DNA of 64,000 nucleotides from Marsupella aquatica. Its lineage: Eukaryota; Plantae; Marchantiophyta. The notes beneath the pieces are model-generated. The model was not told where the DNA came from and did no database searches. It was given only the letters and a program-made list of their open reading frames with translations. Position numbers and translations under genes: made by a program. The stretch lies in the NCBI GenBank assembly GCA_973895155.1, contig OZ316892.1:4300510-4364509 (forward strand). Reading direction: 5' to 3'. Positions 1 through 58,689 of the stretch are shown here, piece after piece (position 1 is the first letter of the stretch; every line of letters starts with the position of its first letter).

Positions 1-520
1 CGTGAGTTGTGTGGCGTTTTTCTTAGATCGTGAGCGGATTCGGTTTGAGGAGCGGCGGTGTTAATCGTCGAACGATTTTGGGGGACGAGAGAGGACTCTT
101 TGTCCAGGGCTCGATCATTCCGGCGAGTGCGATCACGAGGATTGCAAGTGTGCAGATGTGCGGATTCCAAGGGTGTTAATGAGACGGTTGGTCCGGGTTT
201 TGGTCTCGTGGATCGCGGGAGGTGGAGATTTAGGAGGATTCATTCGTTCGGACGACCGCGCGCTAGTTTTGCAGAGTCGGTTGTAGAGAAGTAGGATCCT
301 GGCAGCGCCGGCTGCTTAAATTTTGTTACCCTGTCTGCTCCAACATTCGTAGTCTCTTATCGGCCGTAGTGACCACAAAGGACGGTCGGGACGCATTCGA
401 GATTTCGCATCTGTTGCTAGGTGAATTCTCGTAGAGCACTGCATAGGACGAGGCTAGGACTAGAAGGCCAGGTTGCAAGGATTCCCTTCGCATCGCTGCT
501 GCCCTCCCACTTTTGACATT

Positions 521-1441
521 ATGGCCTTGCGAGATGAGGAGCAAGCGAGCAAGACTCACCAGGCAGAGCAGGGGGCACATTTCAGAGGGGTGAGGAAGAG
601 GCCGTGGGGCAGGTTTGCTGCCGAGATTCGCGATCCATGGAAGAAGACTAGAGTTTGGTTGGGGACTTTTGATACAGCGGAGGAGGCCGCAAGAGCGTAT
701 GATTCCGCTGCGCGGGCACTGAGAGGCGCCAAGGCCAAGACGAACTTCGTCACTCCATGCGACGATCAGAGCACCAGTCAAAGCTCCACCGTCGAGTCTT
801 GGAGCAGTCCGAAGAACCTTCAGAGGCCTGCCCCCTCCGATTCATGGCGGATCGATCTGAACGTCTCCTTCAACGATTATGTGACACCAGTGGAGGATCC
901 GAGCAGTAGAGCTGCAGCGAAGACCATCAGCGGGGCTCGATCTTGTCGGAGCCCTTCGGAGAACGTTGCGTGTGCTGTGTCGGGGAAACGACCTTCGACT
1001 CTTCTCTTTGAAGATGTAAGCGCCGGCGGCGATAAGCGTGCCAAAGTTGGCAAGAAGTTTGCCTCTACAGTCCCAGATAGAAGAGGGGTCGACGGAAGGG
1101 AATGGTCGGCGAAAGGAGTCGTCCAACAAGGTTTGGAGACCCGCGCCTGCCATAGCGACTGCGACTCCTCTTCGTCTGTAATTTTGGATACGGAGGCGCC
1201 CTGTGTGCCTGATGCGAAGCCGGCATCATCCACGCGATCGGGCCCCCTCCTCGACCTGAACATGCCACCTTCGGCCGAGTACTATTCGAACGATAGTGAG
1301 CCTTCTTGTGAGTATGCCGAAGAGAAAGGGTTGACCCTTCCTCCTTCTTCGGCCAGGAACGTAGAGTTTGAGAACAAAAAGGCCCCCGCGCCAGCCCTCT
1401 TGTTCGGTTGGAATGCGTTGCCATTGTGCAGTCGGGCCTGA
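521..1441 (+). CDS. AP2/ERF transcription factor, group VIII (ERF3/ERF4-like EAR repressor), single exon
   Basis: AP2 domain [57 protein letters not shown]; [11 protein letters not shown] motif typical of group VIII; EAR motif LLDLNMPP. First in-frame ATG is at 521 (the ORF track starts at a TTG at 473). Confidence 0.95.
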
Positions 1442-15943: not shown

Positions 15944-17480
15944 TTATTGAAACAGTTTGGACTTTGGGGAGACAGATTAGTACAATAATTAGTGTCAATA
16001 AAACATGGGTTTTCCCAAGTCCCGTACTATGATCAATTGAATCAGTCTCTGAGCTCTGGTCAGAACTCAAGCTCCTCGGATTCGTTTGCTCAATGATCGA
16101 TTTGCTGCAGTACATTGGAGCTCACTAATGCGTAATTGGGATGGCGTCAATGTTTGGGAGCAGCAGGGATGAAATGCATCGTGCCCTCATGGTCGAAAGT
16201 TCAAAACTATGTCATTGGATTACTTGATTCTTTCGATGTCGTCTGGTTGTGACCTCAGATTGATGGCATAGTTTGCGCGCAGATTTTCTAATTTACACAC
16301 AGATATAAAAATCAACCTCTGTTGCTTCAAAGCTTCGCGATATCTTGTGCAGTAATGGGGCGCTGGTTTCGGTTGAGTTTTGATGACATTGTTTTCGTGC
16401 GGATTGGGTTGGATTGGATTGCATGATTTGCACAGTAGTGATACTGGAAAATGCTGGTTCTGGTCGCTGTCGTCGGGGTTGGTACGGGGATAGCTGCTGC
16501 TGCTGCAACTTACTGCCATTCTCGCCGTTGCAGAGTTCGGCCCTATCGTGCAGACGGTTCAGACTCGATTCGATGCTTCGCCAGTGTCGCAGGTTTTGCC
16601 CCGGTGCCCCTCGGATTGGTGGTGCTCGGTTTAGATGATGGACAGATTTGCATAATCTTGAGCTTAGGCTGGTGGTCGACTTGCTCTGAGGAATTGATGT
16701 GGTCGTTTTGGAGCCCGCATTGTTTTAACAGAGGATTAGTGTGGATGGCTCGTTTCGGGGAAAGCTTCGGACGATAGCGGGACGATAGCGGGCTCGAAGG
16801 ATCTCGAGTAAATTTATTCGACGTACTTGTTCCTTTTCCTTGAGCAAGCTGAGTTGATGATTTCGCCACAATTATGAGCTTCTGGATATCTGGGCCTTTG
16901 CTTTCTCTGTGTCTCTCTCTGTGTCACAGTGCGTGTGTTCGGGATTTATGTTTCGATGATTGTGGACGCCTCATAGACTTCGTTTCCCCTATGCTTACTG
17001 GGAAAGGCCGCACCGTGGGTAGAGGAAAGTGTTGGGAGCTACACTTCATGCTGTCGTCATTTGCAGGTTGTCTGGCATTGCGACAGAATTGATCCTCCGC
17101 TTCTGCCCTAGCTCCGACGATTCGACATTTCCAAGTTTACCGTGTTCAGTCCATGTCAGTTTTACTTGACTCGATGAAAACATCATTTCTCGCAGGCCAG
17201 CCTCTGTCATAGTACAGTGTGAAGTATACTATGTGAATCTAATCCAGAATTTCATGAAGAGGCCTTTACTCGGATTCACGCTGTACTACGACAACGAGGG
17301 AGGTAGTAATGTGACCGCTACTGTGTAATATTCATCAAGGAGAATTCTATAAATACATGTCTTTCAGAAATGTGAAGGCTTCTGCGTGATCTTCTCAGGA
17401 ACCACGTCTTCCCTTGGGGTACACCACTGCACCTCCAATCAAGGAGACTGCGGCCTTTCAGACGGCGAAAGGGAAAAGGG

Positions 17481-19644
17481 ATGACGAACTTCCGTTTGGG
17501 CTTGCCAAGGAGGATCTTTCTACTGACAGCACACAAGCATCGATTCCTGTTTATCTCCGTTCTTATGCTTCTCTTTATCGTAACCATCTTCTCCCAGCTC
17601 AGAAAATATATTGGCACAAGCACGTTCCAAGCTTCTCTGCCCGAGCCACAATTGCCTGGCTCTTGTGAAGGACGATGGATCTACATTTACGACCTTGATC
17701 CTGAATTCAACCGAGAGTTTGTGCAGAATTGCTCGACTTTTAGGAAGAATGTGGACATGTGCCCCTACACGGAGAATGGTGGAATGGGGAAGAGTTTTGC
17801 TTATGAGCAGAATGTCTTTTCCGAAGGAGTGTGGTACAACACATGGCAATTTAGTCTGGAGATGTACTTCCATGAGCGATTACTGCGCTATCCCTGCCTC
17901 GCACCAACTGAGGAGTCTGCGAATGCATATTATGTGCCGTTCTATGCGGGAATGGACTTGACGAATCACGTGTCTCATCCATCTTTGAAGAAGTACCTGG
18001 AGAAGACTCACATGGAGCTTTTGGATTGGCTCAGGCATCAGTACTTCTTCCTAAGGAATGGTGGGTTTGACCACTTCATCACTCTGGGGCACATTGCCTT
18101 AGACTTCAGGAGATCCAAGGGTGACACCTCGGGTTCTCGAGTAAGTCCTTCTCTTTCTTCAGATCCTGCTGTGCGATGGGTTCCTGGACTCGGTAGTTTT
18201 GTATATGTTGCGGAATTGGTACCAATGGACCTTGGATTCTTGCATACATTCACTACTCGTGCTCTCTCTCCATTTATTCAATTGATCCAATTGTCTGGTA
18301 GTTTTCTCTCTTACTATATTCAAGCCAATTCTCTGGCTGGTCTGCCTTACTATTCTATACTCTGGGTATTCTTGTTCACTGTAAGAACCTTAAGCTCATC
18401 CCAATGAGTCTGTGTTGATTGTTGACCCTCCCGAGTACCAATTTACTTCAAAATCATTCGTGAGAGTAGTTGTACATTATTGGTCTCATGACCTTATGGG
18501 GGCCGTGCAGGCAACGAACTGTTTCGTTGGTCCGTCAAGTCACTGAATTCTGTGTGCAATTCGTCTCCTATATCTGCTCCCCTTTTTTGCGGTTGTTGGC
18601 ATGGCTCTTGAAAGTTCTTGCTGGTTGTATTTTCCTTGGACCTAATAAATTGAATTCAGTGATTCGTTCCTTGTCTTTTACATCGGCATTGCCGCGTTAG
18701 AACAGGGGCAATTTCCTGTTTGTCACTTTACTATCCATAGTTATTCGTTAATTATCTATGGAAATGGCTCATCCGCGAAGTACATTTGTCTAGCTGACGG
18801 AGTATCATCTCCATTGTAATATTTGCAGATGTTGCTGCAACCAGACTTTCAGAACATGGTGAAGCTCACCGTTGAGCGCGAGGGCAGCACACCAATGTAC
18901 TCTAACAATGAGATTGCTATCCCTTACCCATCCTACTTTCATCCTCGTGACATCTCAGACATCGAATCTTTAATCAAGTGGTCAGCCCGGGAATCTCAAC
19001 GCTCGGTACTCGTAAGTATAGCTGGACTTAGACGAAAACAAGGACAGGGTGGCCTAAAGGAGAAACTCATGAAGGATTGCGAGCAGGATGATCGATGCAC
19101 TGTCCTCATATGTCAGGGCCACGAAGGTGTTAATCAATCTGATTTGAGCACACGCTCGTACAGCTTTCTACCAATTTCCGGACACTCCCTTCAAGAATCA
19201 TGCAGCTTTCCTTCGATACTGCTTGACGTTTTCCACAGATCAGTGTTCTGCTTGCAACCCCCCGGAGAAAGTCCATCCCGCCGGTCATTCATCGACTCGC
19301 TGATTGCCGGCTGTATTCCGGTGATCTTCCAACGCAACTCAGCTTGGTCCCAGTATACCTCATTTCTACCTGAGGATGGAGACGCCTACTCGTTGTTCAT
19401 TCCAGTTCCTGAAGTCCGCACGAAGAACGTTGTCCAAATACTCGGCAAGATTTCCAAAAGAAAGATTGCATCCATGAGAGCACAGATTCAGCAGCTCCTT
19501 CCAAGAATTCTGTATGCACATGTTGACCGCACATACCCTCTTAATGACCTTTCTGATGGAAGTGCCTTGACAAAACCGGATGCTTTTGACATCGCATTGC
19601 ACGAAGTGCTGTCGTTGGTGAGGAAAAACGTGGAACAGGCTTAG
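17481..19644 (+). CDS. GT47 exostosin-family glycosyltransferase, MUR3/KATAMARI1-like (xyloglucan galactosyltransferase clade); exons 17481-18140 and 18829-19644
   Basis: N-terminal type II TM anchor; CEGRWIYIYDL, WYNTWQFSLEMYFHERL, YVPFYAG, GGFDHF, AIPYPSYFHP, SVFCLQPPGESPSRRSFIDSLIAGCIPV motifs; phase-0 intron cga|gtaagt...ttgcag|atg joins the two ORFs in frame. Confidence 0.92.
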
Positions 19645-20202
19645 CTGGCCACTTACATTGGGAACCGGTTTCATTTTTTCAATGCCCATGTTCAGTAGAA
19701 CTCGTAGCCATAAAGATAGGTTCATGGCTCAAAATTGAGGATCTTGAATCGATGAGAGATACATGGTTATCAATTACTTCGAAAAGGCCAGTGGACTCCT
19801 CAGAGATCTAGAGGAATGGATTTCTTATAGGTTTATCAGTCGAGCCTGAACATGCAATCCAATGTATCCACTCCGAAACCAGTACAGTTGTCAACAATCT
19901 CTTCTACACCGTCGTTTGTGAAAATGGCTCCAGCAGTACTCATCAGAGCCCTGTGAATCTTCTTTATTACGTTCTTTTGACCCTGCAACATAATTATATA
20001 GAAGTCTCATAAGTTCACGGATGCTGTTGCGATTGATTGTAACTGAAAAACATAGACAACACTCTTGAAGATCTCAATTATGATTTCACAGCTTTAGGAT
20101 TGATTATATCAAACAAGCCTAAGAATCTGTGTTTGAATTGGATGACAACTGCTCTTTCACAAAAAATCTACAATAAGATGATCATATTTATGTATGTTCA
20201 GC

Positions 20203-23200
20203 TCAAAACAGGGGAATTGGGGAAACCATAGAGCTCGAGATTTGTGAAAAATTACAAACCTGGAACTGAGAGAACTTGCAGTCTGGGGCCAAGATATCGG
20301 TTGTTGCATAGTCCTCGGCTCTGCCATCAACGAAGATGGTGGATGCCCTTTGATGCCCTTTCTTGTGCCTGGCTTCGTGGAGCTTCTTGTATGTCTGTTT
20401 AGTTTCTTGATAGGTTTGACCTGTATTCACAGTATTTTATCGACTTCATGATTTAAGAATCCATCTATCCATCCAGTTGCATCAAATTGCAGATTAGTTC
20501 ACGTACTGGAGTTTCTACAGCCTGTAAATCAATATTTAGTGTGCAACTCTACAACTTAATATTTTCAAACAATCATCAATCATTTTCCTGGTGGATGATG
20601 TCCCTGAGTTATCTCGCAGACTTAGCTCGGACAAGTCAACTTTAGTGCCACAAATGAAAGCTCACATACCAAGTACTCCATGAACTTGTGGAGTTGTTTT
20701 CAGTTGATCAATCTTGAAGTTGACCTGTCGTTCGCCATCATTTACAAAAGACCAGATTAGCTTGGCATAGTAATATATTAGCATAGTAAGATGTTCACTC
20801 TAGTCCAAGTCATATCTATGTTGCAATAATTGTGCGTGTCATTATTGCAAGATAACACACAGAAATATAGATCATGGTAGTTGTCAATAGCAGAATTGCC
20901 TTTCTTGCTTACAGCATAGCAGAAATTCGCAAGCAGAACAAAAACAAAAGCTAAGGAAAATCAAGCCTTGCCGCCGCACAGAACTCAAGATGGAAACGAT
21001 TTGTTACATAGTTTTGGCCCGATCCACGTGGTGTGAATGTTGGTGGGCGAATAGTTATGTTCATGTCGAGCTCTCCCAAGACTTGGATATGAGCTCCATT
21101 GGAACCACGGTGAACAATCAATCCGTCTGTGGTAGTGAAATCGTGATGAGGTTTCACTTCAACCTGGAAAGAACACGAACAGCCAGCCCATTAATTCTCC
21201 AAATTTTAAGTTCCATGAATTTGAAACACGAGTCATACAGATCAATACTTTACTTCAAGCTTCCTTACCAATTGCGATAACCGAACCATCAAACCAAGTT
21301 AGGATGCAGCTCAAAATGCTCTCTAACTTCCATCAAGACTAAACATGTACACTCATGGTTGTGGACTCATGAGTGTGTCCATCAGTTTCAAGCTGGGGAA
21401 AACAGAGTATGGCAAGATAATTGATTGCATTGCAACTACATGAGATAATGTCTGGAGCTTACTGTTCACACACTAATTCGTTGCAGAGAATTTATTCAAC
21501 TTACATTGTTCACCAAGAGTTTCCACTGATGTTTGAAAGCAGAAGCATTAGAGTTAGCATGAGCATCGACGAGGACGTAAGACTCCTTGTACAGCACACC
21601 AATTTGGGAAATGAACTGCATAATTGGAAAAGCAAGGGACAGTCAGATAATTTCTCAAGGTCATGCTCGAACTGAACACTGTGAATTCAAATTATTAGTT
21701 TCCGATCCAAATTTGGCTTCTCCAGTAGATCTACAGTAGATCACCTCAATCACTTACAAATGAAGATGCATTCAATTTGTTCTCTTTCGTCAATTACCTC
21801 AACAAAGGAATGAAACCAAAGCTGAAGATTCTACAAGTTGGTACTACTCTAGTAGTTACTACACATTATGAAAGTACAATTCTAATTAGAAAATCATCGC
21901 TGAATACAGCAATACTTATTTCGGCCTGCGCCACTGTAGTAATGAACTCAAAACGCATGAGAAATGATTTGGATTTGAGATTCGGTTGCTTAGGCTCACC
22001 GTAGTTCCCTTGTGAATGCCTGGAAAGACATGCATATTGACATGCACATTCTTGTCGGAGACAACACAGTAGTTGGTATTCTTTTGTCCTTGGAAGACAA
22101 ATCGCTCTCCATGCTTCCCGAGGAAGTGAGGGTCACCCTTGATACTTCCCTTCTTGGTGGGTGGAGGGCACATTGAGCAATCAGGCATTGGTGGTGGGGG
22201 CGATAGCATGGGTGGAGGTGGTGGAGAGAGTGGGGGTGGTGGAGACAAGGGAGCTGGTGGAGGGGGTGTTGTCCAAGGTGGTGGTGGAGAATCCCATGTG
22301 GGTGGTGGTGGTGACCAAACAGGAGGGGGAGGGGACCACACTGGTGGGGGTGGGCTCCATATGTCTGTTGGGGGCGGAGGGGACCAAGCTGGGGGTGGAG
22401 GTGACCACGTTGGCGGGGGAGGGGTCCATGGTGTTGGTGGAGGTGGAGACCAAGTTGGGGGAGGAGGGGACCAAACTGGTGGTGGAGGAGAGCTTGGTGG
22501 TGGTGGAGGAGGAGATGATGGGGGTGGTGGTGATGCAGGAGGCGGTGGAGAAGGGGGTGGTGGAGATGCTGGTGGAGGAGGTGAACCTGGTGGAGGAGGA
22601 GGACTAGCTGGAGCTGGCGGAGGTGGAGGAGACCAAGTTGGAGGCGGGGGTGACCACAATGGAGGGGGGCTAGGGGGTGGAGGAGGACTAGGCGGTGGAG
22701 AAGGTGGTGGAGGTGATGCTGGTGGTGGAGGTGGAGATGGCGGAGGTGGAGAAGGGGAGGGAGGAGGGGGGCTGGGGGGAGGGGGGGAGGGTGGTGGAGG
22801 AGACCACATGGGTGGACTTGGTGGAGGAGGAGATGGGCTAGGTGGGGGAGGGGGGGAGGCAAGGCATTCACTAGGTATCCAACCGCAAAGATTTCCCCCA
22901 GGCATGGGACAGCTTGGAGCAAGAGATGTTGGCCAGGGTAGATCTGACAGTGCTGACAGCTGCCATGCATGCAATATTTGAGAGTTAGAGCAAAATCATG
23001 TTATTAGACGTTGAATTGTGAGGTTTGCTAAATTAAGCTGCATGATGGGAACTAAAATCACTGCAATGGAATAACAACTGATATGAAATGATCAAGTCTC
23101 TTGACAAGCTTAATAACTAAATTCATGCAGGAGATTCTTACCCTGAACCCTGATTTATTTTTAAGTAGTTATGCACCTTTGATAAGTTATTTATTTCAAC

Positions 23201-26200
23201 TTTGAACCCACCTCCCAAGGGGACCCAGAATCAAAGCGAAGCACAATTCCAAATCTTACATCAGGATTAGATGGCCCAGTTACAGATGGTTGAAGTGATT
23301 TGGCCGGGCAGAAATTGCATGCGCTACCCATGCAATTCACCGAGTCCGACATCTGAACGTACAAGTTTTAGAACAACAATGATAGATGTAAGTAGCTTAC
23401 TGGGAACTCAGTCTATGGTCAATTCAAGCCCCAACAATCAGAATAGTCTGAACAGAGATTTGATCTGATTAATTAATTTCAAAATATAGCCCTAGTTCAT
23501 AAATTCAATTCAAATGTCCTTGGGACCTTACAGGGAATTTGCATTTAGAGAAGCTTGCATTGCCAAGTGCTCCCACATCCACAACTTGCAGATGCTGGTG
23601 ATCCAACCATGCAAACACCACAACCCACAATATATGGGTATCACCATCAATTTGATCCATAGCCTAGCTAATCATGCCTAGCTACTAAGTCCTCACAACC
23701 AATGAATTATGAATTATCTTTGCTAGCAAGATAACTCAACACTCAGATATGTTATTATCTGGAATGAATTTGGAGAACATCACTTTTCATTTAAGTGAAG
23801 TAGAGCATGTCTACCCGGGCTTAAAGTTTTTATTCAAGGACAACATACAAAAAGTGGAAACAACAGAACCCATCTTTTTCCACTTGATAATTCCACATGT
23901 CAGTTCAAGAGACCGTGTAGAGTTTGAGCTTATACCTGCATTGATGCGCCCCCTACAGTGCCAGAGAATTGGGTATCATAAGCAAATAGCCACACCCCAT
24001 GCGAGGCTGTAAGAGCTTTGTCCAAGGTTATATCTCCACCAGAATTCTGTTTAATGAGGCAAATCGCAATAATGGGGAGGATTAAGAAAAGTTATAGTGC
24101 AGGCAATGCAACTTAGACAATGAGATTGACATTCAACCAGGGCCTTTATGCATCATCAACTTTCAGCTGACTATGAATGCATAGACAAACAGCTATACCA
24201 AATAAATAAATATATATATAGTATATGTGGCTGTGTCGGACACCAGTAAAGAGTAAATTCCTTTTTGCCAAGAGGGTATATAATGACTAACTTGAAGGTC
24301 AAAGTTTTAAGAGGGGGTGGAAGAGGAGGGGCCGGGGGGGGGGGGGAGAAACTCAAGCTATATAACTAAGACTTCAATTCTATATATGCTTCCTTTTTAA
24401 ATGAAAAATTCAGTACTCTTACATAGATGTTTGTTTGTGCTCTTTAGTAGCTTGTGTGTGATTGAAATCTTCCAACGGAGAGCAAAGATTAGGAAGTGCA
24501 AACCATGGCAGCATTGTCCACAAAGTCAGAGTTCTTAATTTGTGCAGCAGCTCCTGCTGCACGCCAGCCAAGAAATATTGCTCCTCCAGCATCCTGACAA
24601 GTAAATAACCTACGGGGCATCAATATACAAGTAAACAGGGGAATGACATAGTCCTTTGACCGTTGAGCTGTGTATGCATCTCTAACTAGAATGTAATTAG
24701 AGAAGATCAGATTCAGTACCATGGCTGAGTTGTTCTCAAAGCGTGAATTTGTGACGTCTATTGTGCCACCAGGAGACATTCCATCCGAGCAGGTTGTGGA
24801 AGTATCATCAACATACACAGCACCACCCTGGTCTGCTGTATTCATGAGGAAGAGAGTATCTACTGATGAGGAGCAACTGCTGAGGCTACATCCCGGCACC
24901 ATTGCATCAGGAGGTGACATGTCCATAGGAGGAGGTGACATGGCCATTGTGGAATCTTTTATTTTGTTAATCCTTGCCGTTGTGTCCATTACCGTACTAT
25001 CGGCGGAACCAATATATATTGCACCACCACGTGGTGCCTGCACTTGCAGAAATTGGTTGACATGGTTAGGAAGTTTCATTTGGTTAATTAGCATTTTATT
25101 TAAAGTTAGAATTGTCCAATTAGTGACCATACATGTGAGCCCTTCTCTTATCCATAAAAATTCACATTTAGAGTTGTCTGTTTTGTGAGTCAGTATTGCT
25201 TTACTGATCTTTGGAACAATGTTGCTCATATTTTATGGCCTAATTGAGTGTCTAGCTGGTTCTCACAGGGAAAAGTCACTGCCTCTTGATGCAACATTGG
25301 ACTCCTCTTTCATAAAGGTAATTCTTGCTTTATGGTAACTTCCTGAACGCTGAAATGATAGAAAACATAGAGACAGATGGACTGAGGACAAAAGCCTTAC
25401 TGAGTTTGCAATGAAGACGCAACCATGGTAGTAAGCGAGTGCCCCACCCAGGACTGCTAAAGCTCCTCCAACTTCCTGTTCATTGCCCGGTTCATTGATT
25501 CAAGAATAGTTCCACCAATGTTGTTATAGTAGACATAGATTGGACACTAGTAGTTTAATCGTGTCCTTGATGAACTTCAGTTTAATATCAAAATTAAAAG
25601 CCAAATGTTGTGTGTTGTGACTTTTCAACCAGAATTGAATTATTTGAAGACCAGCTAGACCACAACTAAGGCACCTTGGAGATCATTTATCTAATAATTA
25701 AATTGGGCAGTGCAAATAGACAAAGCATGACGGCAATATTTATGAAATCAGAAAAGAACCACTGACACAATTTGCTTATATCCAGTTAGACAAGTTAAAC
25801 AAAATATTGATTTGATATATCCATGGCCTGGTAACTTCATAACTTGCTCTGGGAGAATCCTGAAACCAGGTCTATAAAGGTCTACGACCCTTGTAAAGCA
25901 ATCACTACTTACCGTTGCAGTATTATTGAAGAAGTGGACATTCAAAGCCACAAACTTTCCGCCCTGACCAGCCATTAGTGCTCCGGATCCAGATACCAGA
26001 ACAGCACCTCCTTGAGTGCAAAGTCCATTTCTCAGATTGATGTCTTTTAGAGTCAGGTACCCAGTCAACCCAATTTGGAAGATGTTCCCTTGTCCCCCAG
26101 CATCAAGCCGGCATAGCATGTCCATGCAATTCCCCATTATTGTGACTTTTTGCATAATGCCTGGTAATGGTACTGAGTCTGCAACATTACAAAGCAGAGA

Positions 26201-28626
26201 GAATATCACAAATTTACACAGTTTCTTTTAGTGTAGGCAAGGTTTGTCACTCTGATTGATAAATAACAAGATTATAATTATAGATGGTTGCATGGTATTT
26301 GTTCCTTTAAGGTCACAGAGAATGTTGTTACCACAAGCTTCCCACACTGACCAAACATATCACTCTTTGATAGGTACATTCATGACTCACCACTTGACCC
26401 CCTTCTTACTTAATGGGGCTTAAGGATATTGTAATCATAGGAATTTGTTCTTTGGCTGTTATGAAAAGCATTAAAGTCACTGAGTTAATCCAAAACATTG
26501 CATGCAATATCTGAAAACATACCAACAACATTTTTTAATTTAAGTTTACAAACCAGCAAGGTTAATATTGTTCGCAACAATGATGGTTGGATTGCCGGCC
26601 AGTAGAGCTTGCACAAGCTGATTTGCAGTCCAGACTTCCACGGTAGTCATTGGGGGCCACATCATCCCAGCTCCCCCTGAAGGCGGTGGCCATATTGTAA
26701 GATGAACATATATATGGTCATGATATTAGGATCCCTCAGAAGCATTGATATTGTTACGATCTAACAAGAACCATAGCAAGAAGAGACGAAGTTTGATTCA
26801 GTAACATGCTGAAAGTGATGTTAGACTTTCCTGGATATTCAGAGCTGAATGAGCATGTAAAGCTTCAATCAAGGATCAATTTTCACTGTTCAATTCAAGC
26901 TTTTGAATTTGTCAGTTGGAATGTGGACTTGGGTATGGTCTATGTTGAATAAGGGATGGGAGTAAACCCTGGCCATTCAGTTCTCATTCTGATTAGTGGT
27001 TATGTAAGCTAAGAACCTAGCTACAGACTCACTAGAGATTCTGGTTATTGAACAAAATTCATCCCTATAAAGGCTTTCAGCTTAAGGATTCAATCCAGAA
27101 ATATGTTAATATAAGTTGCACAATTGATCCAACACTTGGTCAAGTACCGGGGCATTGGAGATGGTGTCATCATCGGAGGAGGCATCATTGGTTCCATCAT
27201 TGGAGGAGGCATCATTGGCGCCATCATTGGAGGAGGCATTATTGGTGCCATCATCGGAGGAGGCATCATTGGCACCATCATCGGAGGAGACATGGGTGCC
27301 ATCATCAGAGGAGACATGGGCGCCATCATAGGAGGAGACATGGGCGCCATCATAGGGGGTGCCATGGGTGTCATTGGTCCTATCATTGGAGTTGGTGTCA
27401 TGGGGGTCATGGGTGCCATTGGTGCCATCATTGGACCTGGTGTGGGGGTCATTGGGGTCATGGGTGTCATTGGCGGTGGCGGCGGCGCTTGAAGGAGATG
27501 TCTCCCAGGTCGGGTACTATACCCCGCAGTGATGAAATATTGTTGACCCACAGTAACATGACAGGTTCCCGAGGATCCGGGCGACAATGGTAATGCCGGT
27601 AAACTTTGTGTGAAATTGGAAACATCCGCCAGTGATGCATAGTACTGTAAACAAAGGAGGCACACACCCAGCCCAACCACAAAAGCTCAATTGGTCAGCT
27701 CTGTTGCTTAGTTGTGCATACTATTGGTACAATGATTTGATCTGGAGTTGCTATTGTTGTGTCAATCAAATGAATGTGAAGTTTTCTGAAATGAATTCTA
27801 ACATGCTCAAAATGCATTTGATGTCTCACTTATTGTTTGAAGAATGATTATTGGCCTACAAAACTCATTTCTTACTATGATGCAACACAAGTGGACATCC
27901 CATTAATTCACTTTAATGTGGCATGACACCAATCCATCCTTAGTCATTGACACTTCTACTGATGCGGGAACATTCTTGATCCAGCATGAATGTTTCTAGG
28001 TGGTATTCTTAAATTTCACCAAAGAGTTTATTCTTGATAATGGCCCGTGCTAAATTTTCAATCATAAGTCGAAAAGCAAGGCACACATTCAGCAAAGAGG
28101 TTGGTTCTCACCTCACGAAGATTATCTAGAGAATTGGGTTTGCTGGAATCCCCAAGCTCTGTAATTGCAACTGTCGTTGCCTGAACATCTGCCAGAGACC
28201 AGACGGACAAATAAACATTTGGTTAGAATAAATTTCACACACATTTAATACTGAAAGTAATTGAAGCTCGATCAGGCCTGCAAACTGCAAAATTTCAAAG
28301 AAGCTAGTTTAAATGCGTAGGCAATGAGCATAGAATATATTAGAATGGAGGTATCATTAAGTCTTTAAGTCTAAACTTTCCCTGGAATTGCGTACCATCG
28401 TTAGACATGTTAGATTTGTTTGCAACTTGTGGAAACAATTCTTAGTAGTTACAAAAACCAGGCACTATTATTCGTGCTTCCAATGGATTACATTGAAATT
28501 GTTCCAAAACATTCAGATGTTGGGGCAGGGGCCACCCAAACCTGAGACGGATAAGATCTGGACCAGCTGCAATGCCACAAGAAGGGGCCATCCTAGCCCG
28601 TGACAAGGCCCCATTCTCCTCCTCAT
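20203..28626 (-). CDS. secreted chimeric proline-rich cell-wall protein: signal peptide, Met/Pro repeats, Pmp-like beta-helix, extensin-like stalk, Root_cap (LEA-related) domain; about 15 exons
   Basis: Hand-spliced exons: 28626-28542 (MRRRMGPCHGLGWPLLVALQLVQILSVS), 28188-28112, 27644-27148 (GRHLLQ + MPPPMMAP repeats), ~26676-26554, 26178-25913, ~25475-25401, ~25038-24720, ~24593-24504, ~24044-23937, ~23594-23532, ~23352-23260, ~22959-22000 (SPPPP repeats then GDPHFLGKHGERFVFQG..YCVVSD), 21615-21505, ~21160-21000, ~20755-20670 (VHGVLG), ~20421-20203 (GQTY...DY.TTDILAPDCKFSQF). Most junctions are GT-AG and phase-compatible; the exon 3-4 junction and the ends of the last three exons are unresolved. 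Confidence 0.8.
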
Positions 28627-29477
28627 GGTTAAATTGATGAACTTTTGATCATGCACTCACAGATGCAATTTCTACCCTTCCTTCATTCGGCTGTCAATGC
28701 TCGTCTGCAATTAAATTGGTGAGCTAGTAGTATGCAATCAGCTGAGCAATCTCACTGTTATAACCCAAAACAACACAACTGACATCATGTGAGACACAAT
28801 CTCAGATGATTATATCAATGAGCAAAGCAACTTAGTGTATCCTGCTCTGCTTTGGGTACTAGAAAACAGGCAGATCATTCCTCCATTAGAATAATTTTGA
28901 ATAGTTGCCACCACTACCCTCTATTAGCTCCAAAAATACCACTGTCAGCTGTGCCACCCCTCCAGAAAATACTGCGTGAATGGAATTAATGTGTCTTAAT
29001 TAAACAATTCAGCAATGTGTGGAATGTTGGCTTGTTGTCGCCTACCATAAATTGTGAGTGCAATATTGAGGAAGGGCCTTTTTCCTTGCAGCTGCCAAGC
29101 TCAAATTCATGGAGCTCCCGGATGGAGTTGAGGAGTTTGAATTCCAATGGAGGAAAAGATTATGTAGAGGGAAACGAATAGTAAGGAACTGATCAACCAG
29201 GATTTCACCCCTGGTCGCCCCTTCCTTCTTTCCTCGCAATGCCCTCTCTTGTCTATGTGCAGCCTGTTCAGTACGAGCACACAAGCTCCCAATTTTGAAC
29301 AATTTGCTACCAAAATTGCTGATCGTCTTTTAAAAAATGGGCAGGATATATTGTAGGACTGTGTACAGCTATTATCTGCAATGCAGACCAAGAGATGACA
29401 GTCCTGGATTATCCAGCCTTCTGATGGACAGTCCCACTTCAACGCTTGACTACTGCTGATCCATGATCCTGAAGTAC

Positions 29478-29577: not shown

Positions 29578-31832
29578 ACACAAGCGCAAGGGGGAGGAGG
29601 GACAACTGGCAGGAGGGAGGGGGGTGTGCGGCGGTTACTGCACAGGCTTAAAAACTGCCGTTCGGTTAGGTTCTACTTTTCACCCGGGTAAAGTTTGTGG
29701 TATTGTGTCGAGTTACTCTAGTGACTATCAAGTCCAAGAAGTAAATGAATAGTTATTGACAAATTGAGTCCCTGGGATAAAAGTAAAATCTAGAGGAGAG
29801 TTTCCTGAAACTTTGAGAAGACAATTTTGAGTCCCTGGAACAAAAAATAAATTTCTATGAGTAGTGTTCCTGAAACTTGGAGAAAACACTTTCGAGCCTT
29901 GAGAAAAAATAGATATATAGAGTACTGTTCCTGAAACTTTGAAACAACATTTCATTGCAAATGCAAGGAATATTCTGACCATCTTGATGTGAAACACTGA
30001 TTTATTGGTGTAGACGCTAACCGCAATCTAGAGAAATTATTTTGGCCAATTTGTTGTTCTTTGAGAGGTAAGTAGCACTAGAATGGACCACCAAGTTTAA
30101 CGGCAAACCTGGATGGACCATCATGACTTAGATGAACCATAAGCTTAGAACATTAATACTTTTGGTAATCGATAATACTTAGTTGGCTTTGCTTTCATTG
30201 TCTGAATGCCCTCATGATTGCTCACATCTTTTTGGTGTTAATACATGGTTGGTCCATCTGGGGCACTTGGTGAAACAAGATAGTCTAGCTGAGTATCAAC
30301 TGCAGCACTTTGAGCTCCCAATTTGAACAAATACATATCTAGAGTGTAACACGAAGTAATTGCACATTCAAAAGGACAGTCCCTCTATACTATAATTTGC
30401 AATCACAGTTTACTGGTTCATCACCAACTCCACAAAGTGAAGCAGACAATTTTGATATTTAGGCTACCGTAGTGCCATAGTGGTTTGTGCAATGAATAAA
30501 TTATTATTAAAATTGTGTGCATGACTAAATAGATATTTTGGGGTCCTTGTGAAACTTATAAATTGATTTTTATCCTGTACATGTTAATCTGAATATTCTA
30601 AGCATCCTGGTGTAAGTGCTGACTTTGCAATGTGCATATTGCTTTTATTAAAAATAAAGAAATTTATAGGAAATAATATTCTGGCCTTACAGTGTTATTC
30701 CTAAAATAAAAACAATCAATATTTTGTGAAAGCTCTGTGCAAATCAGGATGGCATGTACTCTTGGCACGTACTATGGCATGTTTGTGAGTAGGGATATGG
30801 GGAGTCTGGGTACAGGGAGCCCTCCTTGTGCATAGGTGCTGCTATTTGAGCTAGTGCACATAATTGTGTATGGGAGTGACCAACAACCTCGCCAACAACT
30901 AACTTATATAAAATGCAAACTAAATCCAGAAACTTTACCAGAGTAAAAATAAGAACCTAAACCACAACAGCAGTTCCTAAGCCTGTGCAATAACTGCCCC
31001 CATGGCCACAGGATCGGAGTCCGTCCTCCTTAAGCATCATGTGGTTTGGTAATGCAAATCTGGGACCAGGCCTCTTTCATATGATGTCAAACGGTGTAAC
31101 ACAATCAGTAACACAATCAGTGAGCTGTAAAGAATTCAACACCTCAGAGAGCATGACAGCAGAATGAATCAACACTAGGGAGTTGAAGATTGAGGAGTTG
31201 GGAAGACCCAATTCAACGGCTTCAGAGCATGATAGCGGGATAACAGCAAACAAATCGGTCAAGGATTGAATTGGGACGGGAAGCAGGACTGTTGGTCAAA
31301 GTGCCAGTAAATTCAGGCACTTTCTAAATTAATTTTTGCATTGCAACATTACAGAGAATATTGTACACTATTGTGCAATCTCCGCCAATTTTCCAAAAGA
31401 CAACTAGTAAGTTTTGCTTTATGCTTTGCAGCATTGCAGAAGATGTGTACACTATTTGGCAATCCCTGGCCATTTTGAAAAAGCTAGTTTTAGAAGTTTT
31501 TCTTTTCTGCATTGCAACTTTGCAGAGGATTTGAAAAACAATTACTAGGTGTGGGGCTCGTTCTGGACTCTGGAGTTCATGTGCATGAAGCTGGGTATGC
31601 TCAATTCTTTGTATTGAACTCTTCTTACTGTGGGGAGGATTTGTTATTGAACAGGTTGCATGTGAGACACAAGAAAGAATTGGTTGGAAAGGCAACATTT
31701 TGTGGCCTAAAATCTTCATCCATGTATTTTGGAGTAGGAGGGAAGGCAATCTAGCTTGCTTTGCTGATTGATTTATGTGAGACTCACCTTACTTTGAGTT
31801 CTTCTGGGTTAGTAAAGAGTCGCTCAGCTTGG

Positions 31833-33400
31833 CTGCTCAGTTGACTGGCAACTACTCACCAAACTAATTGCAGGCAAGCATTGCCAACTGAATGGGTGAA
31901 AGGGAGATATTGTAATTTGTGAGCTCATGATCAAACTAAAGCTCATTGCTTTCACCGCGAGGAGGAGAATTGGGCCCAGCTAGTCCCTTGTCCTAGCATT
32001 GCAGCTGGTCCACATCTTGTCTGTCTCAGGTAAGTCTAATGGCTCTGATCAACGCCATTGTTTGCTAGGACTTTATCCATCCATTGAGCAATAAAGGATC
32101 TATTTTGTTTGACATCCTTTATTGCTCAATGAACTTCAAAAATTTGATGAGTTAGCTTTATGGCAATTTAAGATGAAAAAACCTTCCTGAAATTGAATGT
32201 TAGGAATAGAAACAAGCTAGATCAAACATGCTTGGAGTAGATCTTGCAACAGTGGCAATGTGGATGCAGATGGATTCATGTCAAGCTACAAGTTCAGTAA
32301 AGTCGGGAGTAAAGTGAACGAACAAGGAAGTTGTCCAATTGTGTAACTGAGGGTTGCATCCAAATAATGAAGTGACTCAAATCATCTTCAAACTGTAAAT
32401 GAAACTTTATTTTGAGAGAAACCCAAAAATTATTTTCATTTACTGATTGTTAAATCCTTGTAACATACATTTGTTTCTTTGACATTAAGTGTTTTAGACT
32501 CTAGCTAAAGACATGCGTTATAATCTAGAACAATAAAGTTGTTGGCACTACCAATTGTGTACACAACTAAGAAACAGAGCTGACCAATTGAGTTTTTTTG
32601 TGTGGATTGGGTGTGTGCACACTTGTTACTAGTACTACACATCAACGGAAGATGTTTCCGATTTCACACTGATTACCGGCATTGCCATTTGCCTCCAGGA
32701 TCCTCCGGTGCCTCTCATGTTATTTGCCTGGTAATTGTCCAATTGTGCAAGATTGAACTGTTAAATTTCTGTTTCTACAAAAGTCATATTGGAAGTATGA
32801 ATTGCATTCAATCATCATAATCTTGGGGATCTGTAGCTAAGTTCCCACCTTACTTCACCACAATTTAAGAATGAGCACTTGCGACCAGGATTTACATCCA
32901 ACTCCTCCTCAATATACTACATAGTTTTGACAGTGGGAATGGATCTCTAATTAACAATAATGTATCTTCTAATTCTTATGAATATCCTTGCCAGCAAAGT
33001 TTTGAATTGTTTCAAGTGCCATGTTCACAAGTTATCTCTTCTAAAGTGTGTACTTATAGTTCTATCTTGCAAGATCTGAATTGTTTCAAGTGCCATTTTC
33101 ACAAGTTATCTCTTCTATAGTAGTCATAGTTCAATCTTGCAAGCTCTTAACAATGCACCCTTCTAGGATGCTATCATGTATGTTCATCATGCAGTATGGC
33201 CCTGCCAGCTTCAAAGGCACTCAGTGCCTTGCAGAGAGAGACAATCCTCACCAACACCATGGTTCACAACAAACTCATTGAACCTAATTTGGTCCATCCA
33301 AGATCCCAAATCCAATGAGCCATGCCCACATTTGTACGGCCCTCAATGGGTTATAAACGTTCTGTAGTTGTCACTAACTTTTGTACAGGCAAGGTAAGTC
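31833..33400 (+). pseudogene. inverted, decayed partial duplicate of the 5' end of the 20203-28626 gene
   Basis: 31833-32030 matches the reverse complement of 28540-28750, with ATG changed to GCG (caccgcgaggaggagaat...gcattgcagctggtccacatcttgtctgtctcag|gtaagt); 32550-32722 matches the reverse complement of 27550-27730. Confidence 0.8.
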
Positions 33401-37249: not shown

Positions 37250-38005
37250 TTAGACGAGCTCCCTAGGCCAAACTCTATACCATCCAGTCCAAGCCGATGT
37301 CAGCCCGCTGATGCCAAGAGTAATGGCGTGAGAAACAAAGGGGTTCGGGGCCAAATCAGACAGATCGATCACATAATCAGCAACATTCGCGGCAATCGCC
37401 ATTATCCTGATGACCCTTTGGAACCGTATCTTTGCTATGGCCGCCTTCCTCTGCTTCACCTGCTCAGCTAGGGTCAAGGTCGAGCAAGGCTCCATTTTGC
37501 CACCGTTGAGAAGAATGTTCAATTCATTGAGGTACTTCTTCTCAGCTATCCGTTCATTTTTCAACGTGATCAGGTCCGAAATGATGAAAAAAGTGTAGCC
37601 GAATGCCTCTCCAAACGCTGATATGAAGCAGAATTTATCCGCGAGATGCTTGTCCAGAAGGCCAATTCGAGACAGCCAGGTGAAGTGATCAAAGAAGAAG
37701 TACACAAACTCACCACTGTTGCTCAGAACCGCCAGCAGTTGCCATCTCCAATCCGGGTACTCGGTGGTCCGCACCGTATTGTATCCCGTCAGGAATCGCC
37801 CCATGCGGAAGCATTTTCTGCTCAGCCCACACGATACCTCCCAATTCTTCACTCGGATGGCCAGTTCATTGTTCCCTTTCTGAAGCAGGTACCAATTGGC
37901 AATTTTCGATGTATATTGAAATGTCTTCACCAGCTTATCGATTCCGTCTCGTTTGGCCAGGAAGACCACCAATCTATCCGTGAAATCGTGCTTCCGCCCC
38001 CCCAT
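37250..38005 (-). CDS. PEX11B: peroxisomal membrane protein PEX11 (PEX11B type), single exon
   Basis: DRLVVFLAKRDGIDKLVKTFQY N-terminus, SRKCFRMGRFLTG, YFFFDHFTWLSRIG, LGISGLTSAWTGWYRVWP C-terminus. Confidence 0.93.
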   Translation of the reverse strand: MGGRKHDFTDRLVVFLAKRDGIDKLVKTFQYTSKIANWYLLQKGNNELAIRVKNWEVSCGLSRKCFRMGRFLTGYNTVRTTEYPDWRWQLLAVLSNSGEFVYFFFDHFTWLSRIGLLDKHLADKFCFISAFGEAFGYTFFIISDLITLKNERIAEKKYLNELNILLNGGKMEPCSTLTLAEQVKQRKAAIAKIRFQRVIRIMAIAANVADYVIDLSDLAPNPFVSHAITLGISGLTSAWTGWYRVWPRELV

Positions 38006-38880
38006 TCTCCCGATTCTGTCAGCCCTTCACCTTCAGCCTCTCTACACGACTACTCTCAGCTCACAGACATCCAACAACGACCCACACCACTCGCATTCCA
38101 CAACCTCTTTTCCTACCCACCCACTCGGATTCCACAACCTCCTTTCCTAATCTATATAAGTAATCTCGAAGAGAAGCTAGAGTTGGGGTCTATGCTTGAA
38201 GCATCTAGGCCGTGACTCTAGGGCCCCACCAAACCAAAATTTATGTGGATAGAAAGAAGGATGGGGATATTATGTGGATGGGGAAAAGTTCACAAAAATA
38301 AACTCCATTAGCTCTGGACAATTGTCATGCAGCCATCCTCCATCAGACTCTTCAGAATCTATCTTCCAAGCTTAGCTCCGTCAGCTCCATGCGAGGCGAG
38401 GTACGATTCCAAGTTTCTCAAACCCATCTCTAAATTGCTCACCTAACCAACAAATTACGGCCACATTCTACGAGAACATCACATACTGAAACATCCAAGC
38501 TAGCATCACATTCTGAACTCCGGAAATCTCCGCCTCAACAGCTCTCAATTGCGGAACCTCTGACTCACCAAGTCTCAATTTGCAATTCATCCGAGCTACA
38601 CTCTTCTCGGCCTCCCCGCCTGTAAATTGGCATATCGCATCGCATCCAATCCAATAGACTGATGGGGCCCTGACCTCTGGCTCTATCCACCACAGTGTGG
38701 CTGAAATGGACGATAATCTGCTTCCGATGAACCCACAGCCCTTGCTACGCAAATAGGATACCTGTGGTGAAGAAATGCCGTGATCTCGCTCGAGGACATG
38801 GAGATAGGGACCGAGCGACTGCCAGCTAGCCAGGACGGAGGGTATTAAGACCATAAGCTTAACATAGACAAGAGAGAAAG

Positions 38881-51060: not shown

Positions 51061-51378
51061 CATGATGCCATCCCTAGGGAATTGGTCTAAAGCATGAATG
51101 AAGTTAAAATTGGAGTTTAAAGATATTCTATAGACATCTAGGAACTAGTAGTTGGAGGGATATAGTATATCCCATTCTGTATATAATATTTATTTTGTTT
51201 TATGTGGTAATATTATGTTTGGTTTTGCATTGTCCTAGATTTAAAGTGTTTAAGCATACTCCCTTCCTCAAATGAAGGGAGGTAGTATGGAAAATTAATG
51301 CCCTCAAAATTACAAAGAAAAAAATCATAAAAGTCTTTCAGGTCCACAAGGAGCCAAACCCAATGTGAATTTGCTTTT

Positions 51379-51723
51379 TGTTGAGCATAGACGACAATCG
51401 CAACGGCAAGCCCATGAACCATCCAACGCACAAAAGTCGACACAGAGAGATACGTGGTTCACCTCCACATGAGGCTACGTCCACAGGAACACACATGAGC
51501 TTTACTGCACTCTAGGTCAACCGGCCATACCAAGCATCCACAGCGCAAGCTCTCTCTATCTCTCAACTAGCTCCGTAACAATAAGCCTGAGTTCCCCCTC
51601 TCCAAGCAAACACCGCTTGGTTATAGAGTGTGCACAACATGACTAACCTAACCAAGTCTGCGACTAAGGTTAGCCTTAACTACGGTACATTCGTAACTCT
51701 AGACCTAAGAGTAAATCCTAACA
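51379..51723 (-). repeat. 3' LTR of the copia element (345 bp)
   Basis: TGTTGAGC...CCTAACA, preceded on the minus strand by the PPT-like GGGGAGAT. Confidence 0.95.
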
Positions 51724-54700: not shown

Positions 54701-54853
54701 CTTCCGTAAGATAGCCAAACCCTTCTCACTCATGTGGCCTAGCCGTGAATGCCACAGTTGAGTCATCTCCTCGTGAGACTTGGTTACATTGGCCTCTCCA
54801 CATACAGTATTGCCCTGTAACACATACAAATTCTTCTGTCTGCTCCCCTTCAA

Positions 54854-58687: not shown

Positions 58688-58689
58688 AT

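What the first reader, a model, noticed from the sequence alone, without database searches (positions are those of the whole stretch)
20203..28626. Adhesin-like chimeric cell-wall protein: Pmp-type beta-helix, extensin stalk and Root_cap domain
Seen: splicing the small minus-strand exons gives one secreted protein. It has a signal peptide, an RHLL motif, a Met/Pro repeat block, then alternating GGA[IVL] (GGAVLV, GGALAV, GGAIYI, GGAVYV, GGAIFL) and FxxN (FFNN, FIAN, FENN, FVDN) motifs, a Cys-rich linker, about 230 aa of SPPPP/WSPPPP, and a C-terminal GDPHF..G..F.FQG...VHGVLGQTY...DC..SQF domain. Known: alternating GGA[ILV]/FxxN is the signature of chlamydial polymorphic membrane protein beta-helix adhesins, and the C-terminal motifs match plant Root_cap/LEA-related proteins. 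Inference: a two-headed HRGP with a carbohydrate-binding or adhesive beta-helix on a glycosylated rod. I do not recognise this architecture among characterised extensin chimeras (LRX, PERK, formins). It is scattered over many ORFs in the six-frame track, so it is easy to miss.
Basis: partly seen in the sequence, partly recalled or inferred. Interest (0 to 1): 0.8.

Follow-up and report, generated by a model that had tools for sequence, protein, structure and literature searches.

The report
Mucin-like plant wall adhesin, frameshifted copy
This liverwort-type gene joins a predicted sugar-binding beta-helix, a proline-rich rod and a "root cap" domain predicted to fold like the self-cleaving von Willebrand D domain of animal mucins, a layout also annotated in ferns and an alga, but the copy in this window carries one extra base that likely disables it.

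Summary
All junctions keep frame except exon 3/4, where this copy has one extra base. Contigs of two studies match that base exactly, and sister copies lack it, so this copy is probably a recent pseudogene. No RNA was available.

Annotated proteins of Riccia, Adiantum and Closterium carry beta-helix + Pro-rich linker + GDPH domain; Selaginella has the fusion without a rod. It is an old streptophyte family, not a recent chlamydial transfer. AlphaFold of a Riccia relative gives a pectin-lyase-fold helix (Z about 26) with no conserved basic catalytic residue.

The new point is the Root_cap domain. It is predicted to have the vWD fold (Z 11, MUC5B/VWF/FCGBP/RGMB; TM 0.76 to the ITIH C-terminal domain), and its GDPH aligns with the self-cleaved GDPH of FCGBP. 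Best reading: a secreted, Tyr-free rod with a glycan-binding head, likely matured by Asp-Pro self-cleavage and possibly grafted onto wall glycans. Cleavage and grafting are untested.

The parts
28542..28626 (-). Exon 1: start codon and predicted signal peptide
   Evidence: Marchantia relative P0161 has a similar hydrophobic N-terminus
28112..28188 (-). Exon 2: N-terminal pro-region
   Evidence: CAG/GT sites and phase; its end aligns with the Riccia N-terminus
27148..27644 (-). Exon 3: conserved CHV stretch, RHLL (27503-27492) and 113-aa Met/Pro block (27488-27150)
   Evidence: weak match to Marchantia P0161 (38% over 48 aa, E 0.011)
27149..27152 (-). Four-base C run just before the exon 3 donor: one base longer than in sister copies, breaks the frame
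   Evidence: exact in X2 record 12 and X3 record 20; one base left out in 2 contigs each of X3 and X4; X1 loose end also one base shorter; donor scores
26554..26676 (-). Exon 4: N-terminal cap (strand + helix) of the beta-helix
   Evidence: tblastn 50-56% to Riccia; model
25913..26178 (-). Exon 5: beta-helix coils, GGAVLV and FFNN
   Evidence: 67-72% to Riccia
25401..25475 (-). Exon 6: one coil, GGALAV and FIAN
24720..25037 (-). Exon 7: GGAIYI, short Met/Pro loop insertion, FLMN, GGAVYV, FENN
   Evidence: Pfam Chlam_PMP E 0.004
24504..24593 (-). Exon 8: one coil, GGAIFL and FVDN
23936..24046 (-). Exon 9: late beta-helix coil
   Evidence: tblastn 61-67% to Riccia
23532..23594 (-). Exon 10: last helix coil
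   Evidence: tblastn 74% over 19 aa to P0002 and P0003
23260..23352 (-). Exon 11: Cys-rich C-terminal cap of the helix
   Evidence: alignment; Cys conserved in four genera
22000..22959 (-). Exon 12: Cys linker, SPn rod (22857-22189; 223 aa, 31 SP3+, 13 Trp, 0 Tyr), GDPH (22137-22126) and first strands of the vWD-fold domain
21505..21615 (-). Exon 13: vWD-fold domain
   Evidence: tblastn 55-61%
21008..21163 (-). Exon 14: vWD-fold domain
   Evidence: tblastn 43-49%
20670..20724 (-). Exon 15: vWD-fold domain, start of the Pfam Root_cap motif (VHGVLG)
20260..20420 (-). Exon 16: Pfam Root_cap motif
   Evidence: Pfam PF06830 E 3.5e-4; 67-72% to Riccia
19836..19982 (-).
30926..32916 (+). Inverted, degenerate 5' remnant of the same gene family (upstream stretch, exon 1 without its ATG, start of exon 3, intron 3 piece)
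   Evidence: blastn 72-79% in four pieces; no beta-helix exons found there by tblastn

Best explanation
This gene belongs to an old streptophyte family that likely encodes a secreted wall or mucilage glycoprotein with a predicted glycan-binding beta-helix on a proline-rich rod and a predicted self-cleaving vWD-fold tail, and the copy here carries a one-base insertion that likely inactivates it. Proposed working of an intact member: (1) The signal peptide takes it into the secretory path (inferred). (2) The SPn rod is hydroxylated and arabinosylated into a stiff stalk (inferred from established extensin chemistry); with no Tyr it cannot use isodityrosine cross-links (Tyr count shown). (3) The non-catalytic beta-helix binds an acidic wall or substrate polysaccharide (fold predicted, ligand inferred). 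(4) The Asp-Pro bond of GDPH cuts itself, as in FCGBP, MUC2 and ITIH3, leaving an Asp-anhydride at the end of the rod (fold and register predicted, cleavage inferred). (5) The anhydride is either hydrolysed, as in FCGBP, or captured by a wall glycan hydroxyl, as for ITIH3 on chondroitin sulfate, tethering the rod head-out (speculative; about 0.2-0.25). In this copy, splicing at the best sites would give a 257-aa fragment without helix, rod or tail.
For: Fusion in independent gene models: Riccia P0002-P0004 with PF02415 + PF06830; Adiantum P0013 passes both, and P0162, P0163 and P0065 carry helix + GDPH; so do Selaginella P0034/P0178 and Closterium P0033. Helix model of Riccia P0002 residues 78-523: mean pLDDT 77, 242 of 446 residues at 90 or more, the loop insertion disordered. 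Best matches are pectin-lyase-fold lyases, hydrolases, tailspikes and adhesins (top Z 25.9, rmsd 3.1, 276 aligned). Of 65 columns identical in window, Riccia, Marchantia, Adiantum and Closterium, only two are Asp and none Arg, Lys, His or Glu; none of 10 recalled GH28/PL1/PME motifs is in the window helix. C-domain model of P0003 715-979 (mean pLDDT 63, core mostly 70-88): 16 of the top 19 of 48,161 chains are MUC2/5AC/5B, VWF, FCGBP or RGMB (best Z 11.2, rmsd 3.1, 143 aligned), then Z drops to 4.6; Foldseek E 8.5e-5. The Atlas's own model matches the ITIH2 C-terminal domain at TM 0.76 and vWD at 0.66. A family profile aligns GDPH and the following GxxFDFxG with three GDPH sites of FCGBP. GDPH is intact in all 10 fused relatives seen. 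GDPH chemistry: PMC8267560, passages. Root_cap proteins occur in the Marchantia wall proteome (PMC8792609 supplement row) and the Penium secretome (PMC6027541). Frameshift.
Against: No transcript or protein data for this gene or any fused relative; all relatives are gene predictions, and several are visibly mis-modelled (P0033 fused to a condensin subunit, P0163 to a transposase; Marchantia P0161 and P0012 stop before the rod). Folds were predicted for Riccia relatives (67-72% identical in exon 5), not for the window's own spliced protein; the C-domain alignment had only 17 rows and the five models ranged from pLDDT 39.5 to 63. Many vWD domains among the top hits are not known to me to cleave, so fold alone does not show cleavage. 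In FCGBP the anhydride was found hydrolysed and not cross-linked, which argues against step 5. The whole-sequence E-value of the FCGBP match (5e-6) is inflated by the Pro-rich linker; the best single stretch has E 0.024. The Marchantia wall protein lists no PF02415, so it is probably another Root_cap protein. The 909 codons after the break have no second lesion, which leaves room for a splice rescue.
Confidence: 0.55

Rival explanations
1. The vWD-fold tail is a polymerisation or assembly module as in gel-forming mucins. It may be cleaved or not, but no covalent graft forms; the protein builds a mucilage or wall network with the helix heads binding pectin.
For: The best structural matches are the assembly domains of MUC5B, MUC2, MUC5AC and VWF. 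FCGBP's anhydride is simply hydrolysed. Glycosylated PTS-type rod + vWD is the mucin layout.
Against: The plant domain has no C8/TIL partner modules (only a short tail follows). There is no conserved Cys five residues before the Asp, which in FCGBP D1 (C472/D477) ties the fragments together; upstream Cys lie at -12/-15 in liverworts and are absent in Adiantum. That resembles a releasable ITIH-type pro-domain.
Confidence: 0.25
2. The beta-helix is an active polysaccharide lyase, hydrolase or epimerase held on a stalk, like the known extensin-GH28 chimera.
For: Most top fold matches are enzymes. An extensin-GH28 chimera is catalogued in poplar (PtEXT31). Two Asp (D66 and D231 of the downstream ORF) are invariant in four genera.
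Against: No invariant Arg, Lys, His or Glu, and none of 10 recalled GH28/PL1/PME motifs in the window helix. Identity to the listed fold matches is 8-19%. The sequence family is Chlam_PMP, not a CAZyme family.
Confidence: 0.1
3. This copy is functional: a weak alternative donor, a micro-exon or an internal start restores a full or near-full protein.
For: The 14 downstream exons form an open 909-aa frame with canonical junctions. The same allele occurs in two studies. 17 of 28 exonic differences among copies are synonymous against 0.25 expected, though this speaks for the family and not for this copy alone.
Against: The homologous donor scores 4.4 (held out), and all seven phase-1 GT alternatives in the open frame score 1.2 or less (the matrix was trained on only 15 donors). 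No acceptor in exon 4 fits a two-base overhang. Sister copies are one base shorter at this place. An internal start would lose the signal peptide. A decayed sister fragment lies 2-4 kb away, so copies of this family do die here.
Confidence: 0.18
4. The helix gene and the extensin-Root_cap gene are two neighbouring genes that gene finders join.
For: Marchantia models P0161 and P0012 and Closterium P0030/P0177 end before the GDPH domain. No cDNA was seen.
Against: Exon 11 has a canonical donor and exon 12 a canonical acceptor in frame, 300 bases apart, with no start or signal peptide before the rod. The same order is modelled in four genera, and in Selaginella only 11 residues separate helix cap and GDPH.
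Confidence: 0.05
5. The head is a chlamydial or other bacterial Pmp adhesin recently transferred into a liverwort.
For: Chlam_PMP repeats pass the Pfam cut-off in Riccia. The large Atlas clusters nearest by features are bacterial or archaeal (0.89-0.92). Unnamed metagenome proteins hit at 23-32% identity.
Against: The top-scoring named relatives are Marchantia, Adiantum, Closterium, Selaginella, Chara, Spirogloea, Prasinococcus, a 'Mesen1' record and one haptophyte. The helix is spread over eight exons. There is no autotransporter barrel. The Atlas omits clusters under 50 members. A much older bacterial origin in algae is neither shown nor excluded.
Confidence: 0.03

Closest known systems
Chimeric extensins with a Root_cap domain (PtEXT30, listed with AtEXT51; maize root cap proteins 1/2, 'LEA-related' proteins; PF06830)
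   Same: Signal peptide, SPn runs and a Root_cap domain (passages); found in wall and secretome proteomes.
   Different: Here the N-terminal head is a beta-helix of about 330 folded residues. I recall (not tested) that flowering-plant members have a small Cys-rich head and D-P-R rather than GDPH at the matching place.
GDPH-cleaved vWD proteins of animals (FCGBP, MUC2, MUC5AC, RGMB)
   Same: Predicted vWD fold (Z 8-11.5); GDPH in register with FCGBP; glycosylated Pro/Ser-rich rod next to a vWD domain.
   Different: A single vWD domain, no C8/TIL modules, no conserved tethering Cys at -5, 8-18% identity; the rod is SPn (Hyp type).
Inter-alpha-trypsin inhibitor heavy chains (ITI_HC_C, PF06668)
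   Same: C-terminal domain after a flexible linker, TM 0.76 between predicted models; ITIH3 uses its Asp-anhydride to esterify chondroitin sulfate.
   Different: No VIT/VWA head and no bikunin; the match is model against model; Pfam does not assign ITI_HC_C to the plant proteins.
Chlamydial polymorphic membrane proteins and Pmp-like adhesins (PF02415)
   Same: Alternating GGA[ILV]/FxxN repeats forming a right-handed beta-helix.
   Different: Only about six repeats, no autotransporter domain, N-cap of the polysaccharide-enzyme type, eukaryotic exon structure.
Diatom GDPH-domain adhesive trail proteins (Amphora coffeaeformis Ac629)
   Same: Secreted algal adhesive proteins that are modular, with PTS-rich regions and a GDPH-named domain (bioRxiv 10.1101/2023.03.06.531300, passages).
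   Different: Called diatom-specific there. I could not compare sequences, so homology to the plant domain is untested.

Membership tests
Chimeric extensin (HRGP) | Signal peptide plus repeated SP3-SP5 motifs with a non-HRGP domain | tested here: met
   31 SP3+ runs in 223 aa, hydrophobic N-terminus; met by the gene model, while this copy's frame break separates the two
Classical cross-linking extensin | Tyr cross-linking motifs (YXY and related) in the rod | tested here: not met
   0 Tyr in the window rod and the three Riccia rods; 2-4 Tyr but no YXY in three Adiantum rods
Chimeric extensin (HRGP) | Hyp-O-arabinosylation and wall localisation | not testable with these tools
   needs glycoproteomics and imaging
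Root_cap (PF06830) | Pfam profile above the curated cut-off | tested here: met
   28.2-28.8 bits against 27 in P0002-P0004 and P0013; window exon 16 alone 21.1 bits, E 3.5e-4
vWD (von Willebrand D) fold | Two-sheet vWD structure | tested here: met
   predicted model of the Riccia relative: Z 11.2, rmsd 3.1, 143 aligned; gap to 4.6 after rank 19; independent Atlas model TM 0.66
vWD Pfam family (PF00094) / ITI_HC_C (PF06668) | Sequence profile match | tested here: not met
   neither family was listed for P0002-P0004 or P0013 at E 0.01
GDPH self-cleaving domains | GDPH at the start of the domain, in register with cleaved sites | tested here: met
   invariant in the window and 10 fused relatives; aligned to three FCGBP GDPH sites
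GDPH self-cleaving domains | Actual Asp-Pro cleavage and fate of the anhydride | not testable with these tools
   needs protein chemistry
Gel-forming mucin / FCGBP vWD assemblies | Tethering Cys shortly before GDPH and C8/TIL partner modules | tested here: not met
   Cys at -12/-15 in liverworts, none in Adiantum; only a short tail follows the domain
Chlamydial Pmp autotransporters | GGA[ILV]/FxxN repeats | tested here: met
   6 and 5 motifs; PF02415 above cut-off in Riccia and Adiantum P0013
Chlamydial Pmp autotransporters | C-terminal autotransporter beta-barrel | tested here: not met
   no such Pfam hit; the C-domain is predicted vWD
Pectin-lyase-fold enzymes (GH28, PL1, PME) | Family catalytic motifs and conserved basic residues | tested here: not met
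   0 of 10 recalled motifs in the window helix; no invariant R/K/H/E among 65 identical columns; other beta-helix enzyme families were not tested
Diatom GDPH domain | Sequence or structural homology to Ac629-type domain | not tested
   no sequence in hand; primary paper not in the searched library

The most novel reading that the evidence does not exclude
The plant 'Root_cap' domain is a self-cleaving vWD/ITIH-type module. In this streptophyte family it grafts a Tyr-free extensin rod, by an Asp-anhydride, onto wall or mucilage polysaccharide so that a beta-helix adhesin is displayed head-out. That would be a peroxidase-independent protein-glycan cross-link in plant walls and a plant counterpart of mucin/ITIH chemistry, possibly tied to substrate adhesion during terrestrialisation.
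Probability: 0.2. Interest if true: 0.9.

Novelty: new variant of a known kind. Interest (0 to 1): 0.6.

Why it matters
Root_cap proteins are listed as 'unknown function' in wall proteomes. Assigning them a vWD fold with a GDPH site gives a direct, cheap test (look for the PH-starting peptide; mutate the Asp), and it offers a way for Tyr-free extensins to become wall-bound. The helix-rod-vWD fusion is predicted in liverworts, ferns and a zygnematophyte alga, and without the rod in a lycophyte, so it may be an ancestral streptophyte adhesive or mucilage component. For annotation, this locus is probably a dead copy, and work should use an intact sister or a Riccia or fern orthologue.

Tried and rejected
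No genome assembly is held for this window, so sister copies could be seen only through contig tables. Sequencing-run search: no RNA holder listed. The four runs cover introns and show no joint skipping a predicted intron, so they behave as DNA and say nothing on splicing or expression.

An assembly error at 27149 was rejected: exact bridging contigs occur in X2 (study P1) and X3 (study P2); the X1 and X4 exact pieces end too close to count. Either study may be the window's source.

The word-based search with the C-domain returned only the 3 Riccia proteins among 612 candidates and missed even the Adiantum fusions, so it shows no absence. No seed plant appeared among the 12 of 30 looked-up clusters that named an organism (30 chosen by me, by score and plant-like look, from 150 listed of 173 hits). 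Loss in seed plants is therefore only a lead.

The tree is the quick tree only, because the careful search did not finish. It has 77 rows; I dropped hits covering under 95 columns and 21 near-duplicates, and 38 of 72 forks are open. The window groups with Riccia and Marchantia (support 87), and a long-branched haptophyte pair falls inside the 95-supported land-plant group. No donor or order of events is claimed.

Foldseek gave no helix match at E 0.001 or better; only VIA-align did. phmmer of P0004 against PDB sequences matched only Pro-rich stretches.

Paper searches (open-access library only) found no description of the PF02415 + PF06830 fusion or of Root_cap as vWD-like. InterPro, TED and subscription papers could not be checked, so the fold link may already be recorded there. 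The search for RGMB's cleavage position found nothing relevant; that RGMB chains starting at residue 169 begin at the cleaved Pro is recalled. Earlier findings of the scan: three look-ups, nothing shown. No complex prediction was run.

Full report
Gene model. Reading the minus strand gives 17 exons from 28626 to 19836, with introns of 126-471 bases, each with a CAG acceptor and a GT donor (the exon 12 end was corrected from 22001 to 22000). Its end at 20203 runs into an intron: exon 16 is spliced at 20259 to a last exon whose translation matches the C-termini of four Riccia proteins at 43-54%. The closest named relatives are Riccia and Marchantia proteins and the neighbours are plant genes, so the window is probably from a liverwort. 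I did not try to name it further.

The frame break. Exons 1-3 give 219 codons plus two bases; exons 4-17 give an open 909-aa frame that needs one carried base. Spliced at the best sites, the product ends in exon 4 at 257 aa. Four public runs of two studies hold this DNA; they cover the introns and skip none, so they are genomic. In one search, X2 record 12 (637 bases, 26636-27272) and X3 record 20 (187 bases, 27037-27223) match the window with no difference across the site, so the extra base is not an assembly slip. In the same call, two contigs each of X3 and X4 lack one base at 27149. A loose end in X1 shows a further sister whose donor-side sequence is also one base shorter (read). Both give the phase that exon 4 needs. 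A donor matrix from the other 15 donors scores the homologous donor 4.4 and the seven phase-1 GT alternatives 1.2 or less; the training set is small. I put the chance that this copy is non-functional at about 0.8. The lesion looks recent, since nothing else is broken. Among 29 exonic differences taken from the 80 rows displayed (40 of 366, 40 of 101), 17 of the 28 that could be classed are synonymous against 0.25 expected; the family has been under purifying selection. An inverted, decayed 5' fragment of another copy lies at 30926-32916.

The architecture elsewhere. Exon 5 found four Riccia proteins among 380 candidates; three carry PF02415 + PF06830 with an SPn rod between. A full HMMER scan with the Riccia helix gave 173 hits. 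Names were looked up for 30 of the 150 listed, and 12 named an organism. Helix + GDPH domain in one model: Adiantum (four models, three with rods of 215-238 aa), Selaginella (two, 11-residue linker) and Closterium (one, with a Pro/Ser/Thr linker, wrongly fused to a condensin gene). Helix-only models occur in Marchantia (P0161 has a signal-peptide-like start), Closterium, Chara, Spirogloea, a 'Mesen1' record, Prasinococcus and a haptophyte. All are gene predictions; I saw no cDNA. The quick tree puts the window with Riccia and Marchantia, then Adiantum, then Closterium and Chara, with modest support. It does not settle the deep origin. A recent chlamydial transfer is not indicated.

The head. 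AlphaFold2 on Riccia P0002 78-523 with 52 rows gives a confident right-handed beta-helix with an N-terminal helix cap and a disordered loop insertion (mean pLDDT 77, pTM 0.77). VIA-align ranks alginate, pectate and other lyases, hydrolases, tailspikes and adhesins (Vag8, PfbA, SRRP) at Z 20-26 with 8-19% identity; Foldseek found nothing at E 0.001 or better. The conserved residues are structural: Gly, Ala, Phe, an Asn ladder and Cys. Only two Asp and three Tyr are invariant among charged or aromatic-polar residues, and none of ten recalled GH28/PL1/PME motifs occurs in the window helix. A non-catalytic binder is the better reading; the ligand is inferred.

The rod. It has 223 aa, 65% Pro, 31 SP3+ runs, 13 Trp and no Tyr. 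The Riccia rods also lack Tyr, and no fused relative examined has YXY. By established extensin chemistry it would be Hyp-arabinosylated but unable to form isodityrosine links.

The tail. The model of P0003 715-979 (17 rows; mean pLDDT 63, core mostly 70-88, last 57 residues poor) matches vWD domains. 16 of the top 19 chains are mucins, VWF, FCGBP or RGMB; the other three (Cypridina luciferase, vitellogenin, a cricket pigment protein) I recall as vWD-containing. Z is 8.2-11.2, and rank 20 falls to 4.6. The ESM Atlas's separate model matches a Root_cap cluster (TM 0.80), the ITIH2 C-terminal domain (0.76) and bacterial vWD proteins (0.66). A profile of the family aligns GDPH and the following GxxFDFxG with three GDPH sites of mouse FCGBP (best single stretch E 0.024). 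PMC8267560 (12 passages read) reports that all GDPH-bearing vWD domains of FCGBP are cleaved, that cleavage yields an Asp-anhydride, that ITIH3 uses it to bind chondroitin sulfate, and that in FCGBP it is hydrolysed and the fragments stay linked by a disulfide from a Cys five residues upstream. That Cys is not conserved in the plant proteins, and the site follows a long flexible rod, which is closer to the ITIH arrangement. Cleavage (about 0.6) and grafting (about 0.2-0.25) are inferences.

Comparison with print. Extensin + Root_cap chimeras are catalogued (PMC5073881, two passages). Root-cap proteins appear in the Penium secretome (PMC6027541, passages and two supplement rows) and one in the Marchantia wall proteome as 'unknown function' (PMC8792609: no hit in the main text; one supplement row). 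Diatom adhesive trails contain a GDPH-named domain (bioRxiv 10.1101/2023.03.06.531300, five passages; its supplements are closed and the primary 2019 paper was not seen). PMC3149072 had nothing relevant (term search). Other papers were seen only as search listings. Ten searches found no account of the triple fusion or of Root_cap as a vWD/GDPH domain, but domain databases and subscription journals were out of reach.

Verdict. This is a real, apparently undescribed variant of chimeric extensins, with a testable mucin/ITIH-like processing site that may explain a domain of unknown function. The particular copy is probably dead, and function rests on predicted folds of relatives. Interest 0.6.

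Noticed in passing
window 30926-32916 (+): Inverted, decayed 5' fragment of the same gene family, head to head with the gene: ATG lost, no Met/Pro block, no helix exons; 72-79% identity in four pieces.
   Followed up: partly
window 40287-42707 (-): One uninterrupted 807-aa frame with MutS II-V domains. It looks MSH4-like to me (recalled); plant MSH4 genes usually have many introns (recalled), so this may be a retrocopy or an intron-loss case.
   Followed up: no
window 17376-19644 (+): GT47/exostosin glycosyltransferase gene ending about 190 bases from the stop codon of the finding, tail to tail; no evidence of a functional link.
   Followed up: no
window 51378-59036: Copia-type LTR retrotransposon with 348-base LTRs 96.6% identical and gag, integrase and polymerase-like frames in pieces.
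   Followed up: no
window 464-1438 (+), 37253-38026 (-), 48354-49748 (-): Ordinary plant genes: AP2/ERF factor, PEX11, BAHD-type transferase.
   Followed up: no
window 27488-27150 and 24950-24900 (-): Met/Pro-rich blocks, one before the helix and a short one in the helix loop; Marchantia P0161 has a Met/Pro block in that loop, Riccia an Ala/Pro/Ser one. Role unexplained.
   Followed up: no
window 27503-27492 (-): RHLL resembles the RxLL site-1 subtilase motif (recalled); R-x-L-L/RRL motifs also precede the helix in Riccia, Adiantum and Closterium models, hinting at pro-region removal.
   Followed up: no
window 19500-29200, runs X2-X4: Contig depths and variants suggest two to three or more close copies of this gene per sample: a small multigene family or homeologues.
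   Followed up: partly
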